This document shows positions 27,954 to 58,721 of a DNA stretch of 64,000 nucleotides, one piece after another (position 1 is the first letter of the stretch; the number at the start of each line of letters is the position of its first letter). The DNA lies in the NCBI GenBank assembly GCA_038843015.1, contig JAWBSH010000003.1, forward strand, positions 133,343 to 197,342, given 5' to 3'. The translations under genes and the position numbers were made by a program. A model generated the notes under the pieces. The model was not told the DNA's origin, made no database searches, and saw nothing but the letters and a program-made list of their open reading frames with translations. Source of the stretch: Zestosphaera sp. (GTDB lineage: Archaea > Thermoproteota > Thermoprotei_A > Sulfolobales > NBVN01).

Positions 27954-28240
27954 AAGACTGTTTGTATGTTGTTTAGTTTTGGTTTTTCTGGTTATTTGGG
28001 TTATTTATGTGGGTTTCGGGAGCTGACGTAAAGGTATATAAGCATCCACGTGTTTTAATAGCTGGGAGCCGATGAGCTGATGAGCCGTTGGCGAGGGACG
28101 AGGCTCTGTGAACCGCTCTTCACCGATGGCTCTGGAGACCCCTACGACACCCCTGGAACCGTAGGCAGGGAGAAAAAAGATAAACAGGTGGGATGAACCC
28201 GTACCCAGAAAAACCAAAACAACTAAAACAACCAGAAAAC
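27954..28240 (+). ncRNA. GC-rich structured intergenic element, copy A (unclassified RNA family)
   Basis: AAGACTGT leader. A perfect 15-bp long-range helix (27977-27991 with 28205-28219) encloses a GC-rich core containing nested hairpins. A 50-nt block is 43/50 identical to copy B with compensatory change. Confidence 0.55.
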
Positions 28241-28316
28241 TTAGCTAACGGATACGGGAAACCACTCAATACTCTAACTTATTTTTATTGTTCAGCGTTT
28301 TAGTTAGGTGGTCTGA

Positions 28317-45481: not shown

Positions 45482-46798
45482 GTGTTTAAGTTCTTGAGTT
45501 CGAAAGGAGAAGTCTCTAGGGTAGCTTTCCCGATACTTGTAGGAATGATCCCAGACTCAGTAATCAGTCTCGTAGGAATGATTACTGCATCAAAAATTGG
45601 TAGGGAAGCCTTAGCAGGTACTGGTCTCGCCTCATACTTGTTCATGATAGTAAATGCTGTGACTTCGGTTTTCATGGTAGGTTTACTAGTAATTACTTCT
45701 CAAGCTTATGGAGGCAATAACCTAAAATTAATTGAGAGAGCTTTCGGCGAAGCTATTACCGCGTCAGTTCTTTTCTCGGTCGCGGCGGTCGTGACCTCAC
45801 CTCTCTGGCTACCTACCTACATAAGCGTACTCTCAGGTGGTCAGGGAGTAGTTAGTGAGGTTGCCGTGACTTACTTAAGCTTAAGAATTCTCTCTATACC
45901 TGCCTTGATGCTTAACTCTGTGATAGCTACTTTATTCAGAGCTGTGGAGGAACCGTGGCCACCAACCTACTCCTCCATTAGTGTTGGCGTGATTAGTTCT
46001 GTTCTCGTGCCTTCCCTTGCCCTAGGTTACTTAGGGTTACCTGAGTTAGGAGTTTCTGGCATGGGTCTAGCCTCGGCAATTTCACAGTATGCTGGTTTGC
46101 TTGTGTATATATTTCTGAGACCCCCGATTAGGGTGAGATTATATGTGCCATCAAAAATAACGACTAAGATATTAGCTGTGGGAGTTCCTGCCTCTATAGA
46201 GAGATTTGTTGGGAGTGCGGGACATAATATATACATAAACGCTGTTGCTAGGTCAGGTATTGACGCTCTAGCGGCTCATAATATAGGGTTAAGTGTGGAG
46301 AACTTAATCATAGGTCCTGTCTTCGCAGTAAACATAGCTGCTTCTACTAAGGCAGGACATCATGTAGGCGCTAATAACGTTGAAGACTTAGACAAGATAA
46401 CCAAGGAAGCGCTAAAGATCGGTGTTGTTTGGATGTCTGCCGCTACGGCAGTACTTATTGGTTTATCGCCGTTCATCGGAAGCTTCTTCACGAGTAGTGA
46501 GGAAGTCGTTAGGTTAGTTATGGCTTACTTAATTATGGCTGCTATATCGGAGGTTGGGCTTGGCGCCTCACAGGCACTCTACGGCATATTCAGGGGTATG
46601 GGGAGTACTTGGGCACCGCTCGTAATAAGTTCTACTACTGTATTGTTATTTAGAGCCATGTTAGCTCAGGTTCTCCAACCAATTTACGGTGTTTATGGCG
46701 TCTGGTTTACTCAGATAACTGATATGTATGGGCGACTCCTCATATCCTACTTTATGTACGTGAGACTTAAGTCAAGACTTCTTGTCAAGGTTGTATAG
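45482..46798 (+). CDS. MATE-family efflux transporter
   Basis: 438 aa with 12 TM helices and the two-fold repeat typical of the MATE/MviN superfamily. GTG start 9 nt after the hypD stop. Confidence 0.7.
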   Translation: MFKFLSSKGEVSRVAFPILVGMIPDSVISLVGMITASKIGREALAGTGLASYLFMIVNAVTSVFMVGLLVITSQAYGGNNLKLIERAFGEAITASVLFSVAAVVTSPLWLPTYISVLSGGQGVVSEVAVTYLSLRILSIPALMLNSVIATLFRAVEEPWPPTYSSISVGVISSVLVPSLALGYLGLPELGVSGMGLASAISQYAGLLVYIFLRPPIRVRLYVPSKITTKILAVGVPASIERFVGSAGHNIYINAVARSGIDALAAHNIGLSVENLIIGPVFAVNIAASTKAGHHVGANNVEDLDKITKEALKIGVVWMSAATAVLIGLSPFIGSFFTSSEEVVRLVMAYLIMAAISEVGLGASQALYGIFRGMGSTWAPLVISSTTVLLFRAMLAQVLQPIYGVYGVWFTQITDMYGRLLISYFMYVRLKSRLLVKVV

Positions 46799-46803
46799 GT
46801 TTT

Positions 46804-47116
46804 AAGACTGTCTATAGGTTGTTTTGGTTGTTTCTATGGATTCCGAGAATTATCTAGGATATAAATGATTAAGTGTTTGAGTGTTTTTGGAGTCTGTGAG
46901 CTGATGAGTCGTTGGTAAGGGACGAGACTCTGTGAATCACTCTTCGCTGTAGGAGTTGGGTGAACTGCTGGCGGTAGCTGGAGACGTGCTCTTGCAGGCG
47001 GGGTGGGAGAAGAATAAGCTGTCGAGAAGTAGAGGGCTGGGAGGCTGAATACGAAATAACATGAAAACCTGTGAAGAGCCGTTCACCGAGAAACGACTTT
47101 AGCAAAACACTTGTTT
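46804..47116 (+). ncRNA. GC-rich structured intergenic element, copy B (same family as A)
   Basis: AAGACTGT leader 6 nt after the MATE stop. The core block at 46898-46947 is 43/50 identical to 28074-28123, with a C:G to U:A compensatory change. 5'/3' closing complementarity runs GTGTTTT...AGTC with GACT...AAAACAC. Confidence 0.55.
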
Positions 47117-47163
47117 GTAGCCTTATTAGTCATTTACTGTATCATTTGTTGGTGACTTGAGTA

Positions 47164-58647: not shown

Positions 58648-58721
58648 TGGGGCCGCGGGGATTTGAACCCCGGACCACGGGGACCCAAGCCCCGCATTCT
58701 ACCAAGCTAAACTACGGCCCC
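58648..58721 (-). tRNA. tRNA-Pro (anticodon UGG)
   Basis: The reverse complement folds as a 74-nt cloverleaf. The acceptor stem is GGGGCCG/CGGCCCC. The anticodon stem CGGGG/CCCCG carries the loop CUUGGGU. The T arm is CGGGG-UUCAAAU-CCCCG. The discriminator is A, there is no intron, and CCA is not encoded. Confidence 0.9.

What the first reader, a model, noticed from the sequence alone, without database searches (positions are those of the whole stretch)
46804..47116. Copy B of the element: covariation with copy A, inserted between hypD-MATE and hypA-hypB
The same AAGACTGT leader begins 6 nt after the MATE stop. The block at 46898-46947 is 43/50 identical to 28074-28123 of copy A. The differences preserve structure. 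The GAGCC/GGCTC stem of A becomes GAGTC/GACTC, a C:G to U:A double change. The GTGAA/TTCAC stem of A becomes GTGAA/TTCGC, where U-A becomes U.G. That second change is tolerated only if the plus strand is the RNA strand. The ends are complementary (46881-87 GTGTTTT and 46891-94 AGTC with 47095-98 GACT and 47104-10 AAAACAC). Sequence drift with retained pairing is what selection on RNA structure predicts. The element separates hydrogenase-maturation genes that are otherwise adjacent.
Basis: seen in the sequence. Interest (0 to 1): 0.7.

Follow-up and report, generated by a model that had tools for sequence, protein, structure and literature searches.

The report
Orphan guide-RNA copy of archaeal transposon
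The flagged stretch is a small, protein-less copy of a mobile element of heat-loving archaea that keeps only the element's left end and its structured RNA gene, and in all nine related loci read here that RNA sits next to a TnpB-type (Cas12-like) nuclease gene, so it is probably that nuclease's guide RNA.

Summary
The sequence facts hold. Copy B (element 46808-47096) and copy A (27958-28265) share a core that chance does not give. Both are insertions: relatives have 100-120 nt between MatE and HypA (365 here) and 41-89 nt between the thioesterase and TyrRS (397 here).

Neither is a hammerhead or a cis-regulator of the hyp genes. Each is a MITE/PATE-like deletion derivative of a ~1.5 kb element. 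The full element encodes a ribbon-helix-helix protein, a TnpB-related protein (predicted fold matches Cas12f/TnpB) and a ~200-nt RNA gene with its own TATA promoter. The RNA ends at the element's right boundary.

The RNA was next to the TnpB-related gene in all nine such loci. In RHH-type elements it is divergent. In one subfamily it lies 27 nt downstream on the same strand.

Structure is strongly supported: 89.8% of cells paired against 38-47% for slid controls, and 32 of 40 pairs changed on both sides. The GTGAA/TTCRC stem and the terminal pairing are not supported.

Best reading: an orphan omega-RNA-like guide gene, used in trans. This is inferred, not shown. Copy B is a mosaic of two RNA subtypes and partly degraded.

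The parts
46804..46807 (+). AAGA: target-derived motif just 5' of the left end. It is a candidate transposon-adjacent motif (TAM).
   Evidence: It is present in the empty site of relative L029 (GGTTTTTAAGA|TCC). Seven of seven A-type left ends follow NRGA: AAGA x4, TAGA, TGGA, CAGA.
46808..46857 (+). Left end (LE) of the element, T-rich arm, A-type. It starts CTGTCTATAGG.
   Evidence: It aligns with the left end of copy A and of L006, L008 and L010. It also aligns with the left end of the full-length element L007, where this arm overlaps the 3' end of the TnpB-related gene.
46858..46866 (+). TATA box (GATATAAAT) of the RNA gene.
   Evidence: A TATA-like box sits at a conserved distance, about 22-27 nt upstream of the conserved RNA 5' end, in all RNA subtypes. 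Promoter function is inferred, not measured.
46889..47096 (+). RNA gene (scaffold), about 208 nt, GC 0.52 in a flank of about 0.32-0.40 GC.
   Evidence: Covariance model R1: 65.6 bits, E 2.8e-18, full-length match. nhmmer: E 1.1e-37. Composition.
46889..46931 (+). 5' domain. P1 is GGAGTC (46889-94) paired with GACTCT (46926-31). K-turn-like signature: bulge TGT (46895-97), GA (46898-99) and GA (46924-25). It includes the most conserved core, GAGCTGATGAGTCGTTGGTAAGGGAC.
   Evidence: P1 is 6/6 paired and carries the C-G to U-A change relative to A-type. Five of six P1 pairs change on both sides across subtypes. The K-turn is read from the sequence only.
46940..47005 (+). Central long hairpin. 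The closing helix is CTCTTCGCT / GGCGGGGTG. The inner helix is CTGTAGGAG / CTCTTGCAG.
   Evidence: The closing helix is 8/9 paired and the inner helix 9/9. Homologous hairpins in other subtypes have unrelated inner sequences that still pair.
47019..47097 (+). 3' hairpin domain, B-type. It has a 4-bp basal stem (GTCG 47021-24 / CGAC 47094-97), a GA-rich internal loop, an upper helix (47028-39 / 47076-87) and an A-rich terminal loop. It ends at the element's right end (RE).
   Evidence: 81-82% identical to L014 and L017. The basal stem covaries across subtypes (GUGG/CCAC, CCGU/ACGG, GUCG/CGAC; 100% paired, 4 of 4 pairs changed on both sides). The upper helix is only 8/12 paired here, against 12/12 in L014 and 10/12 in L017.
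47097..47116 (+). Flank just 3' of the right end. If transcription runs through, this would be the guide segment of the RNA.
   Evidence: Conservation among B-type RNAs stops at ...GAGAA(A/G)CG(G/A). This stretch aligns to the spacer of the empty site L029. The guide role is inferred.
27958..28265 (+). Copy A: the same kind of gene-less element. LE is 27958-28033, TATA box 28034-28042, RNA 28064-28265. AAGA is at 27954-27957.
   Evidence: R1 gives 227.5 bits. The empty sites L001, L002 and L004 have only 41-89 nt between the FlK thioesterase gene and TyrRS.

Best explanation
Copy B is a non-autonomous, MITE/PATE-like derivative of a ~1.5 kb archaeal insertion element of the TnpB (IS200/IS605-related) world.

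The full element carries three genes. Two form an operon: a small ribbon-helix-helix (RHH) gene and a ~360-aa TnpB-related gene. The third is a ~200-nt structured RNA with its own TATA promoter, transcribed away from that operon. Its conserved scaffold stops at the element's right end.

An internal deletion removed the two protein genes. It left the left end (about 70 bp), the promoter and the RNA gene. This ~290-310 bp unit then spread. It inserted without a target duplication just 3' of an NRGA motif. In this genome it sits between MatE and HypA (copy B) and between a thioesterase gene and TyrRS (copy A).

Proposed function (inferred): the RNA is the omega/reRNA-type guide of the TnpB-related nuclease. 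Transcription would start near 46889 on the plus strand, run through the scaffold and continue into the flank, which would supply a 3' guide. A nuclease encoded elsewhere in the genome would load this RNA in trans. It would then recognise NRGA plus the flank at an emptied site, as described for IS605 TnpB homing. The GAUGA/GA motifs probably form K-turns bound by L7Ae.

How far each step is established:
- Shown: insertion, derivation from the full element, linkage to the TnpB-related gene, and RNA structure.
- Inferred: transcription, guide function, use in trans, and K-turn/L7Ae binding.
For: Insertion:
- Relatives have 100 and 120 nt between MatE and HypA, against 365 nt here.
- They have 41-89 nt between FlK and TyrRS, against 397 nt here.

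Parent element:
- In L007 the same left end (AGACTGTCTGTATGTTGTTTAGTTTTTGG...) and the same RNA flank an RHH gene (53 aa) plus a 362-aa gene.
- The gene-less copies winA, L006, L008 and L010, and winB in diverged form, share one deletion joint. So the short form arose once and then spread.
- The full element is mobile. L015:1637-3126 (1490 bp) splits an EamA gene. Removing it in silico restores a 284-aa ORF with one EamA domain unbroken across the joint, with no target duplication.

The protein is TnpB-like:
- NCBIfam guided_TnpB and TIGR01766 give sub-threshold hits.
- Source databases name it TnpB-related protein or IS605 OrfB.
- The AF2 model has pLDDT 88, and its best PDB fold matches are Cas12f, Cas12k, ISFba1 TnpB, ISDra2 TnpB and Fanzor2 (E 3e-10, TM 0.5-0.58).
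- D, E and an LD[KR]H motif are invariant. This fits the RHH/MazE-TnpB branch, where RuvC-III Asp is replaced by His (PMC10691335).

Linkage of RNA and gene:
- The RNA is adjacent in all nine distinct TnpB-related loci read.
- It is divergent from the RHH gene in L007, L009, L013, L014, L015, L016, L017 and L019-22.
- It lies 27 nt downstream on the same strand in L023-28.

RNA structure:
- Cross-subtype covariance-model alignment: 89.8% of cells paired against 38-47% for slid controls.
- 32 of 40 pairs change on both sides. Covariation score 0.588 against 0.07-0.14. No shuffle out of 500 reached these values.
- Single-sequence MFE folds of every subtype give the same central and 3' hairpins.

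Guide-like anatomy:
- Conservation ends at the element boundary, and the flanks differ between insertions.
- NRGA lies 5' of all seven A-type left ends.

Precedent: PATE-like elements that carry only an omega RNA used in trans are described for IS605 (PMC10055086).
Against: - No expression data. The start, the end and the read-through into the flank are all inferred.
- No TnpB-related ORF lies in the 64-kb window. Whether this genome encodes the nuclease is unknown.
- Both window copies have more broken pairs than the nuclease-linked copies. Copy A has 5 mismatches in 40 bp. Copy B has 4 in the 12-bp upper 3' helix. TnpB-linked A-type copies have 0-2.
- Their MFEs are weaker: -59.8 for B against -84.6 and -89.5, and -53.7 for A against about -78 kcal/mol. 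They may be decaying relics.
- In RHH-type elements the RNA is on the opposite strand from tnpB and does not overlap its 3' end, unlike every characterised omega RNA.
- No Rfam family matches, including the known IS605/TnpB-associated RNA families.
- The left end forms no hairpin as single-stranded DNA, so classical TnpA peel-and-paste is doubtful.
- The catalytic Asp-to-His change leaves nuclease activity unproven.
- The cross-subtype alignment was fitted to the model's structure, which inflates the pair counts somewhat.
Confidence: 0.6

Rival explanations
1. The RNA is a regulatory or antitoxin-like partner of an RHH-TnpB toxin-antitoxin-type module, not a guide. It might sequester or silence the nuclease or its mRNA. 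Orphan copies would act as extra antidote or decoy genes.
For: The RHH/MazE-TnpB clade has been proposed to be a toxin-antitoxin system with TnpB as the toxin (PMC10691335). In RHH-type elements the RNA and RHH promoters are back to back within about 35 nt, which suits co-regulation. Orphan RNA genes exist without the nuclease gene.
Against: In the subfamily without RHH, the RNA sits in the canonical omega position, 27 nt downstream and co-oriented. The scaffold ends exactly at the element boundary, which a regulator would not need. The RNA is not antisense to the tnpB coding sequence. The A-rich loop has the same sense as the tnpB mRNA 3' end, so the two cannot pair.
Confidence: 0.15
2. What is conserved is DNA, not RNA. 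The hairpins would be transposon-end structures recognised by a transposase on single-stranded DNA, as in IS200/IS605. The 'RNA gene' would then be an artefact of that constraint.
For: The right-end hairpin folds well as DNA (-12.1 kcal/mol, z -3.7). Insertions make no target duplication and follow a short motif, as in IS200/IS605. In A-type elements the left arm is complementary to the loop of the right-end hairpin.
Against: Many conserved G.U pairs would be A.C on the other strand, and G-T is weak in DNA (UG in 12 of 14 sequences at two positions; six G.U positions). A conserved TATA box sits at a fixed distance. The 5' and central domains are strongly covarying yet lie 90-200 nt from the end. 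The region is GC-rich in an AT-rich setting. The left end has no hairpin.
Confidence: 0.1
3. A host small RNA or cis-regulatory leader that controls the downstream hydrogenase-maturation genes (hypA and the Mrp-type hypB).
For: It lies 68 nt upstream of hypA on the same strand and has an outward-facing promoter.
Against: It is absent from the same spacer in relatives with 83-88% identical MatE. A sister copy sits before an unrelated gene, TyrRS. Homologues sit at unrelated sites and inside a disrupted gene.
Confidence: 0.03
4. A type III hammerhead ribozyme, possibly a retrozyme- or viroid-like element.
For: Copy B gives a sub-threshold Rfam hit to Hammerhead_3: 25.6 bits, E 0.0035, CUGAUGAG...CGAGAC.
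Against: The score is far below the gathering threshold of 48.5. Copy A gives no hit. The sequence reads GAGAC where GAAAC is required (A14 is G). There is no stem I, only 6 nt. In the B- and C-type relatives the C of CUGAUGA is absent (CGAUGAGC). The full-length loci give no Rfam hit at E<=1.
Confidence: 0.01

Closest known systems
omega RNA / reRNA of IS200/IS605 TnpB (ISDra2, ISGst and others)
   Same: It is genetically linked to a TnpB-fold protein. The scaffold is structured and ends at the transposon's right boundary, with variable flank after it. A short conserved motif lies next to the left end. Gene-less copies exist.
   Different: It has its own TATA promoter. In RHH-type elements it lies on the strand opposite tnpB, at the far end of the element. 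It never overlaps the tnpB 3' coding region. It resembles no known omega RNA family in Rfam in sequence or structure. It carries K-turn-like GAUGA/GA motifs. Function is untested.
PATE-like / MITE derivatives of IS200/IS605 (gene-less elements that keep the ends and an omega RNA; Meers et al. 2023, PMC10055086)
   Same: It is an internal-deletion derivative that keeps both ends and the RNA. It depends on proteins encoded elsewhere. It occurs in several copies and makes no target duplication.
   Different: It is archaeal (Desulfurococcales-like). The left end has no palindrome or hairpin. A-type copies have an inverted repeat between the left arm and the loop of the right-end hairpin instead.
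RHH/MazE-TnpB clade, branch RIIIr-4 (Altae-Tran et al. 2023, PMC10691335)
   Same: It is an archaeal operon of a small RHH gene followed by tnpB. The RuvC-III motif has His in place of the catalytic Asp (LD[KR]H). The zinc finger is lost.
   Different: That paper treats the clade as non-mobile and toxin-antitoxin-like, and only guesses at a guide RNA in a 3' untranslated region. Here the conserved RNA is upstream and divergent. The unit has defined ends, sits at different sites, splits a gene and has spawned gene-less copies. Membership of that exact branch is inferred from motifs and gene order, not from a tree.
Hammerhead ribozyme type III (Rfam RF00008)
   Same: It has a CUGAUGA box followed by a hairpin and a GA-containing strand, flanked by a GGAGUC/GACUC helix.
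   Different: A14 is G. There is no stem I. The score is below threshold. The motif is not conserved in relatives.
Archaeal K-turn RNAs bound by L7Ae (box C/D and H/ACA sRNAs, RNase P RNA)
   Same: It has GAUGA-type C-box-like motifs opposite GA. The layout is a canonical stem, a 3-nt bulge and tandem G.A pairs: GCC-NNN-GA ... GA-GGC in A- and D-type RNAs.
   Different: It has no D box, no guide or antisense elements for rRNA, and no ACA box. It is about 200 nt long with three domains. L7Ae binding is untested.
Arc (RHH) repressors of IS605-family transposons (bioRxiv 10.64898/2026.09.24.754181)
   Same: A small RHH protein is encoded in a TnpB-carrying element next to the element's promoters.
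   Different: That work is bacterial and on TnpA-containing elements. Nothing was tested for the archaeal RHH here. Copy B no longer has the RHH gene.

Membership tests
TnpB omega RNA / reRNA | Encoded next to a TnpB-family gene | tested here: met
   The RNA is adjacent in all nine distinct TnpB-related loci read, in two architectures. The window copies themselves are orphans.
TnpB omega RNA / reRNA | Scaffold ends at the transposon's right end and is followed by non-conserved flank (the guide) | tested here: met
   Conservation stops at ...CAACCAC(Y) in A-type and ...GAGAAACGG in B-type, and the flanks differ between insertions. Excision boundaries were confirmed with an empty site and the EamA joint.
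TnpB omega RNA / reRNA | Same strand as tnpB and overlapping or abutting its 3' end | tested here: not met
   It is divergent and at the opposite end in RHH-type elements. It is co-oriented and 27 nt downstream only in the L023-28 subfamily.
TnpB omega RNA / reRNA | Binds TnpB and programmes DNA recognition next to a TAM | not testable with these tools
   Only a candidate TAM is seen: NRGA 5' of seven of seven A-type left ends.
TnpB omega RNA / reRNA | Match to a described omega RNA or IS605-associated RNA family | tested here: not met
   No Rfam 15 match at gathering score in the window. None at E<=1 in four full-length loci.
PATE/MITE-like non-autonomous IS200/IS605 element | Shares both ends with a longer, protein-coding parent and lacks its genes | tested here: met
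   L007 (full length) against winA, L006, L008, L010 and winB: same left end, same RNA end, one shared deletion joint. The minus-strand ORFs over the element are not conserved in frame.
PATE/MITE-like non-autonomous IS200/IS605 element | Presence/absence polymorphism, no target-site duplication, insertion 3' of a short specific motif | tested here: met
   Empty sites. No duplication at either window copy or at L015. NRGA motif in seven of seven cases.
PATE/MITE-like non-autonomous IS200/IS605 element | Subterminal hairpins at both ends (TnpA recognition) | tested here: not met
   The left ends have MFE of 0 to -3 kcal/mol as DNA, no better than shuffles. Only the right end folds (z -3.7).
PATE/MITE-like non-autonomous IS200/IS605 element | A Y1 TnpA transposase in the same genome to move it | not testable with these tools
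   Only 64 kb of the genome is available.
TnpB / Cas12 protein family (for the parent element's 360-aa protein) | RuvC-containing TnpB fold | tested here: met
   AF2 model with pLDDT 88 and pTM 0.81. Foldseek against PDB: Cas12f 3e-10, ISFba1 TnpB 7e-7, ISDra2 TnpB 4e-5, Fanzor2. Sequence models alone are sub-threshold (29 bits against a cut-off of 100; no PDB hit by sequence).
RHH/MazE-TnpB clade (RIIIr-4) | tnpB directly downstream of a small RHH/AbrB gene, with RuvC-III Asp replaced by His | tested here: met
   RHH of 48-53 aa overlapping the tnpB start. Invariant D330 and H332 in LD[KR]H[T]ASAY. Placement on a tree was not done.
Hammerhead ribozyme type III | Conserved core CUGAUGA...GAAA, three stems, and an Rfam score at or above the gathering threshold | tested here: not met
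   25.6 bits against 48.5. The sequence has GAGAC. There is no stem I. Copy A gives no hit.
K-turn (L7Ae-binding) motif | Canonical stem, 3-nt bulge, tandem G.A/A.G pairs | tested here: inconclusive
   The sequence fits in the A- and D-type 5' domains (GCC-UGU/GAU/GAG-GA ... GA-GGC). It also fits the 3' hairpin of L011, L019 and L023 (GA opposite GAUGA). Other copies have AA or GG in place of GA.

The most novel reading that the evidence does not exclude
The RNA is the so far unidentified guide RNA of the archaeal RHH-TnpB (Asp-to-His) clade. In this reading the clade is a set of active mobile elements, not a fixed toxin-antitoxin module. The ~360-aa nuclease uses a separately transcribed, promoter-driven, K-turn-containing RNA encoded at the opposite end of the element and on the opposite strand. 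Gene-less RNA-only copies, such as the two in this window, supply extra guides in trans. This would be a new architecture for OMEGA systems and a source of very small thermostable RNA-guided nucleases.
Probability: 0.4. Interest if true: 0.75.

Novelty: new variant of a known kind. Interest (0 to 1): 0.6.

Why it matters
TnpB nucleases are the ancestors of Cas12 and are being developed as very small genome editors. For the archaeal RHH-TnpB clade, the only description found in the searchable literature could not place the guide RNA and regarded the genes as immobile.

The family traced from this finding gives that clade four things:
- a concrete, strongly covarying RNA partner
- defined element ends
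- a candidate adjacent motif (NRGA)
- direct evidence of mobility: a split EamA gene, empty sites and gene-less derivatives

It also shows that the RNA gene and tnpB can be inverted relative to each other, which a search for RNAs downstream of tnpB would not find. Biochemistry becomes directly testable with protein plus this RNA plus an NRGA target library at high temperature.

For the window itself the result is modest. The two copies are orphan, partly eroded insertions that happen to sit between housekeeping genes.

Tried and rejected
- **Rfam.** Nothing but a tRNA in the whole window at gathering score. The two copies at E<=10 gave only a sub-threshold hammerhead hit on B. Four full-length loci gave nothing at E<=1.
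- **Hammerhead.** Rejected: A14 is G, there is no stem I, and the motif is not conserved.
- **Protein-coding reading.** The 70-78 aa minus-strand ORFs have no Pfam hit, and their frames are not conserved between copies.
- **RNase P, SRP and C/D sRNA resemblances.** Considered from memory. No model support.
Rejected by L015 and by the position of the boundaries.
- **Alternative 13-bp helix GAGCCGUUGGCGA/UCGCCGAUGGCUC.** It is seen in the MFE fold of copy A and supported by one L011 change. It is not kept in B-, C- or D-type RNAs and competes with P1 and the central hairpin. It is left as a possible alternative conformer.
- **Target-site duplications.** None are consistent. An AGAA repeat at L010 and an ACAG repeat at L015 look like chance, since the EamA frame is restored with both copies kept.
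- **Left-end hairpin for TnpA.** None found.
- **More copies in the window.** None by pattern, nhmmer or covariance model.
- **PDB by sequence.** No meaningful hit.
- **Viral contigs.** No relatives of the protein.
- **Phage records.** No relatives of the protein.
- **Plasmid records.** Only 26%-identical Thermus TnpB-related genes.
- **Literature on SSO2105 or on an RHH-TnpB guide RNA.** Nothing beyond PMC10691335.
Full report
**1. The observation**

The region reads as the first-stage reader said.
- The MatE gene ends at 46798 and AAGACTGT begins at 46804.
- 46898-46947 and 28074-28123 are 43/50 identical.
- A 39-nt degenerate core pattern matches only these two places in 64 kb, with 0.00 matches expected from shuffles.
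- The flanking genes are confirmed by Pfam. Around copy B they are DUF2139, HypD, MatE, then the element, then HypA and an Mrp/ParA-type ATPase. Copy A lies between a FlK-type thioesterase gene and TyrRS.
- The best-matching named relatives are Zestosphaera sp. (TyrRS 78%) and 'Desulfurococcaceae archaeon TW002' (MatE 84%). The window therefore comes from an uncultured Desulfurococcales-like archaeon.

**2. Both copies are insertions**

- Contigs of relatives with TyrRS 89, 85 and 78% identical keep the same gene order. They have only 89, 41 and 88 nt between the thioesterase gene and TyrRS, against 397 nt here.
- Relatives with MatE 88 and 83% identical have 100 and 120 nt between MatE and HypA, against 365 nt here.
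- An independent assembly of the same organism (L032) has the identical filled site.
- The alignments place the joints after AAGA on the left. L029 reads GGTTTTTAAGA|TCC, so AAGA is target, not element.
- On the right the joints fall after ...CCAC (copy A) and ...GAGAAACGA (copy B).
- There is no target duplication. The elements are 27958-28265 and 46808-47096.

**3. What the element is**

*Related copies.* One scan of representative genomes and one of JGI metagenomes with a relaxed core pattern found eight more copies, seven of them distinct.
- Some have the same T-rich left arm as the window copies (L006=L012, L008, L010).
- Others (L007, L009, L013) lack it directly upstream. There the RNA region lies back to back with a small ribbon-helix-helix (RHH) gene followed by a 362-377-aa gene.

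*The full-length element.* In L007 the missing left arm reappears on the far side of that gene and overlaps its stop codon. A 24-nt inverted repeat links it to the RNA region. The full element is therefore about 1.5 kb, in this order:
- left end
- the 362-aa gene and the RHH gene, both on the opposite strand
- promoter
- RNA
- right end

*The short form.* The window copies, L006, L008 and L010 are the same element with the two protein genes deleted. They share one deletion joint, so the short form arose once and then spread.

*Mobility of the full element.* In L015 it splits an EamA transporter gene. Removing L015:1637-3126 in silico restores a 284-aa ORF whose first EamA domain matches the Pfam profile end to end across the joint.

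**4. The protein**

- Sequence models only brush the family: guided_TnpB scores 29 bits against a cut-off of 100, and TIGR01766 scores 28.8 against 32.
- Source annotations call members 'IS200/IS605 family accessory protein TnpB-related protein' or 'IS605 OrfB'. The precomputed Pfam family is PF27229, SSO2105_N.
- An AlphaFold model built on 28 homologues has pLDDT 88 and pTM 0.81.
- Its best PDB fold matches are all RNA-guided nucleases: Cas12f (E 3e-10, TM up to 0.58), Cas12k, ISFba1 TnpB, ISDra2 TnpB and Fanzor2.
- The alignment keeps an invariant Asp region (FDLNSDR), an invariant Glu (VFE[DN]L) and LD[KR]H[T]ASAY. It has no zinc-finger cysteines.
- This matches the archaeal 'RHH/MazE-TnpB' group of Altae-Tran et al. 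2023, in which the RuvC-III Asp is replaced by His and tnpB follows a small RHH/AbrB gene.
- That paper regards the group as non-mobile and toxin-antitoxin-like. It only suggests that a long 3' untranslated region might encode a guide (PMC10691335).
- I found no later work on its RNA in the searchable library.
- My assignment to that exact branch rests on motif and gene order, not on a tree.

**5. The RNA is linked to the gene in two architectures**

I fetched contigs for progressively more distant homologues of the protein.
- P0167 (L014), P0130 (L015), P0200 (L016), P0161 (L017) and P0219 (L019-22) each have a homologous RNA gene divergent from the RHH gene.
- P0240 (L023-28) has no RHH gene. 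The covariance model finds the RNA 27 nt downstream of the tnpB stop, on the same strand, again behind its own TATA box.
- In total, nine distinct TnpB-related loci were read and all nine have the RNA adjacent.
- I call the RNA subtypes A (window copy A, L006-L013, L015), B (L014, L017), C (L016, L019-22) and D (L023-28).

**6. RNA structure**

*A-type sequences alone (9 sequences, MAFFT).*
- A three-domain model is 94.7% paired, against 41-48% for slid controls.
- There is little variation: 4 pairs change on both sides.

*Across subtypes.* This uses an alignment made by a covariance model built from A-type RNAs.
- 89.8% of cells pair, against 38-47% when the partners are slid.
- 32 of 40 pairs show changes on both sides (107 cells).
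- The covariation score is 0.588 against 0.07-0.14.
- No shuffle out of 500 reaches these values.
- Caveat: that alignment is fitted to the structure.
- As an independent check, single-sequence MFE folds of every subtype recover the same central hairpin and 3' hairpin. A hand table shows unrelated helix sequences that all pair.

*Architecture.*
- 5' helix P1 (GGAGCC/GGCUCU) closes a domain with the most conserved sequence, GAUGAGC..GGCGAGGG(G)AC.
- A long central hairpin is closed by CUCUUCGCC/GGCGGGGAG.
- A purine-rich linker follows.
- The 3' hairpin has a 4-bp basal stem that is GUGG/CCAC, CCGU/ACGG or GUCG/CGAC in different subtypes (100% paired, all four pairs covary).
- The 3' hairpin also has a GA-rich internal loop, a 9-12-bp helix and a variable loop of 6-45 nt.
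- The RNA ends at the element's right boundary.

*K-turns.* GCC-NNN-GA...GA-GGC in the 5' domain, and GAUGA opposite GA or AA in the 3' hairpin, look like K-turns. This is read from the sequence only.

*Strand and promoter.*
- Six conserved G.U positions point to the plus strand.
- A TATA box lies about 25 nt upstream of the conserved 5' end in every subtype.
- GC is 0.52-0.63, against about 0.32-0.40 in the flanks.

**7.

- GAGYC/GRCUC is P1, and the C-G to U-A change in copy B is a real compensated pair.
- GUGAA/UUCRC is not a stem. In L015, GUGA abuts UUCGCC. In all subtypes UUCGCC belongs to the closing helix of the central hairpin.
- The terminal pairing is not supported. GTGTTTT lies between the TATA box and the start, and AAAACAC is flank.

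**8. State of the two window copies**

- Copy B is a mosaic. Its left end, promoter and first 60 nt of RNA are A-like (82-87% identical, against 67-73% to B-type). Its last ~100 nt are B-like (81-82%, against 54-56% to A-type).
- Its upper 3' helix is only 8/12 paired, against 12/12 in L014 and 10/12 in L017. Its MFE is -59.8, against -84.6 and -89.5 kcal/mol.
- Copy A has five mismatches in 40 model pairs, the most of any A-type copy. Its MFE is -53.7, against about -78 kcal/mol.
- Nuclease-linked A-type copies have 0-2 mismatches and orphan copies have 2-5. The sample is small, but this suggests relaxed constraint on orphans.
- No TnpB-related ORF lies in the window.

**9. How it most likely works**

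*Shown.* These are insertions derived from a TnpB-family element, and they carry a conserved structured RNA gene that ends at the element boundary.

*Inferred.* The RNA is an omega/reRNA-type guide.
- The scaffold abuts variable flank at its 3' end.
- The 5' end is internal and conserved.
- A short motif lies on the other side of the element. It is NRGA at all seven A-type left ends. It is WGGG at four B/C-type ends, if the element starts at CTG.
- In the D subfamily the RNA occupies the canonical position downstream of tnpB.

This is the logic of IS605 TnpB homing. RNA-only PATE-like elements used in trans are already described (PMC10055086). The RHH protein is likely a repressor of the back-to-back promoters, by analogy with Arc in IS605 elements (bioRxiv 10.64898/2026.09.24.754181). 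That was not tested here.

*Weak points.*
- There are no expression data.
- The nuclease gene was not seen in this window.
- The RNA orientation is non-canonical in RHH-type elements.
- The Asp-to-His change leaves the catalytic site uncertain.
- The left end has no hairpin, so how the element moves is unknown.

**10. Rivals**

- A regulatory or antitoxin RNA (0.15).
- DNA-level end structures rather than an RNA (0.10). This is contradicted by the G.U pairs, the promoter, and the covarying domains far from the end.
- A hyp-gene regulator (0.03). This is contradicted by the empty sites.
- A hammerhead ribozyme (0.01).

**11. Novelty and verdict**

The kind is known: TnpB elements, omega RNAs and RNA-only derivatives. 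New here is the variant:
- a promoter-driven, K-turn-like, three-domain RNA with no Rfam family
- an RNA encoded divergently from an RHH-tnpB operon in a clade whose RNA partner had not been located
- evidence that this clade is mobile

The window copies themselves are ordinary orphan insertions, one of them a mosaic, and both are somewhat eroded. Interest is 0.6. It comes from the family they lead to, not from their effect on the hyp genes.

Noticed in passing
window 27968-28006 with 28200-28240; L007 433-456 with 1835-1858: In A-type elements the T-rich left arm is the reverse complement of the A-rich terminal loop of the RNA's 3' hairpin (19 nt 95%, 23 nt 83%, 24 nt 88%). This inverted repeat sits 25-30 nt inside the right end rather than at it. 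B-type shows a weaker version. C-type L016 has a 6-nt loop and no repeat. Its role in transposition or RNA function is unexplained.
   Followed up: partly
L015:1637-3126: A full-length RHH-TnpB-RNA element (1490 bp) interrupts an EamA transporter gene. In-silico excision restores a 284-aa ORF with an unbroken EamA domain and no target duplication. This is direct evidence that the clade is mobile.
   Followed up: yes
L023-L028, 2340-2504 (+): In the subfamily without an RHH gene (protein P0240), the homologous RNA lies 27 nt downstream of the tnpB stop on the same strand, behind its own TATA box. In RHH-type elements the protein genes are therefore inverted relative to the RNA.
   Followed up: partly
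L013 170-2286 (-) and 2904-2982 (+): Two tandem TnpB-related genes (377 and 323 aa; phmmer E about 5e-30 between them). There is also a weak second match to the RNA's 3' domain about 250 nt beyond the first RNA (nhmmer E 3e-4). This may be nested or adjacent elements.
   Followed up: no
It follows hypA in all relatives read.
   Followed up: no
window 28266-28316 and 47097-47163: Both copies point the same way as the flanking genes. Both lie between a stop codon and the next gene's start, 50 and 68 nt before the TyrRS and HypA starts. An outward-reading RNA promoter now faces those genes. Any effect on their expression is unknown.
   Followed up: no
L014 (RNA-sense) GGGAGC-CGG-GA...GAC-GA-GCUUCC inside the central hairpin: The B-type central hairpin carries an extra K-turn-like motif with a GAUGAACC box. 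A-type RNAs have that box in the 3' hairpin instead. The RNA looks modular, with GAUGA boxes in different domains in different subtypes.
   Followed up: no
window 58648-58721 (-): A tRNA gene (64.7 bits, GC 0.66). It is the only Rfam match at gathering score in the window.
   Followed up: no
L007 603-640 region (between the RNA start and the RHH start): Two TATA-like boxes lie back to back within about 35 nt. AAAAGTATATAAGG serves the RNA and ATTTAAATA faces the RHH gene. This layout suits control of both promoters by the RHH protein. The gene-less copies keep only the RNA-side box.
   Followed up: no
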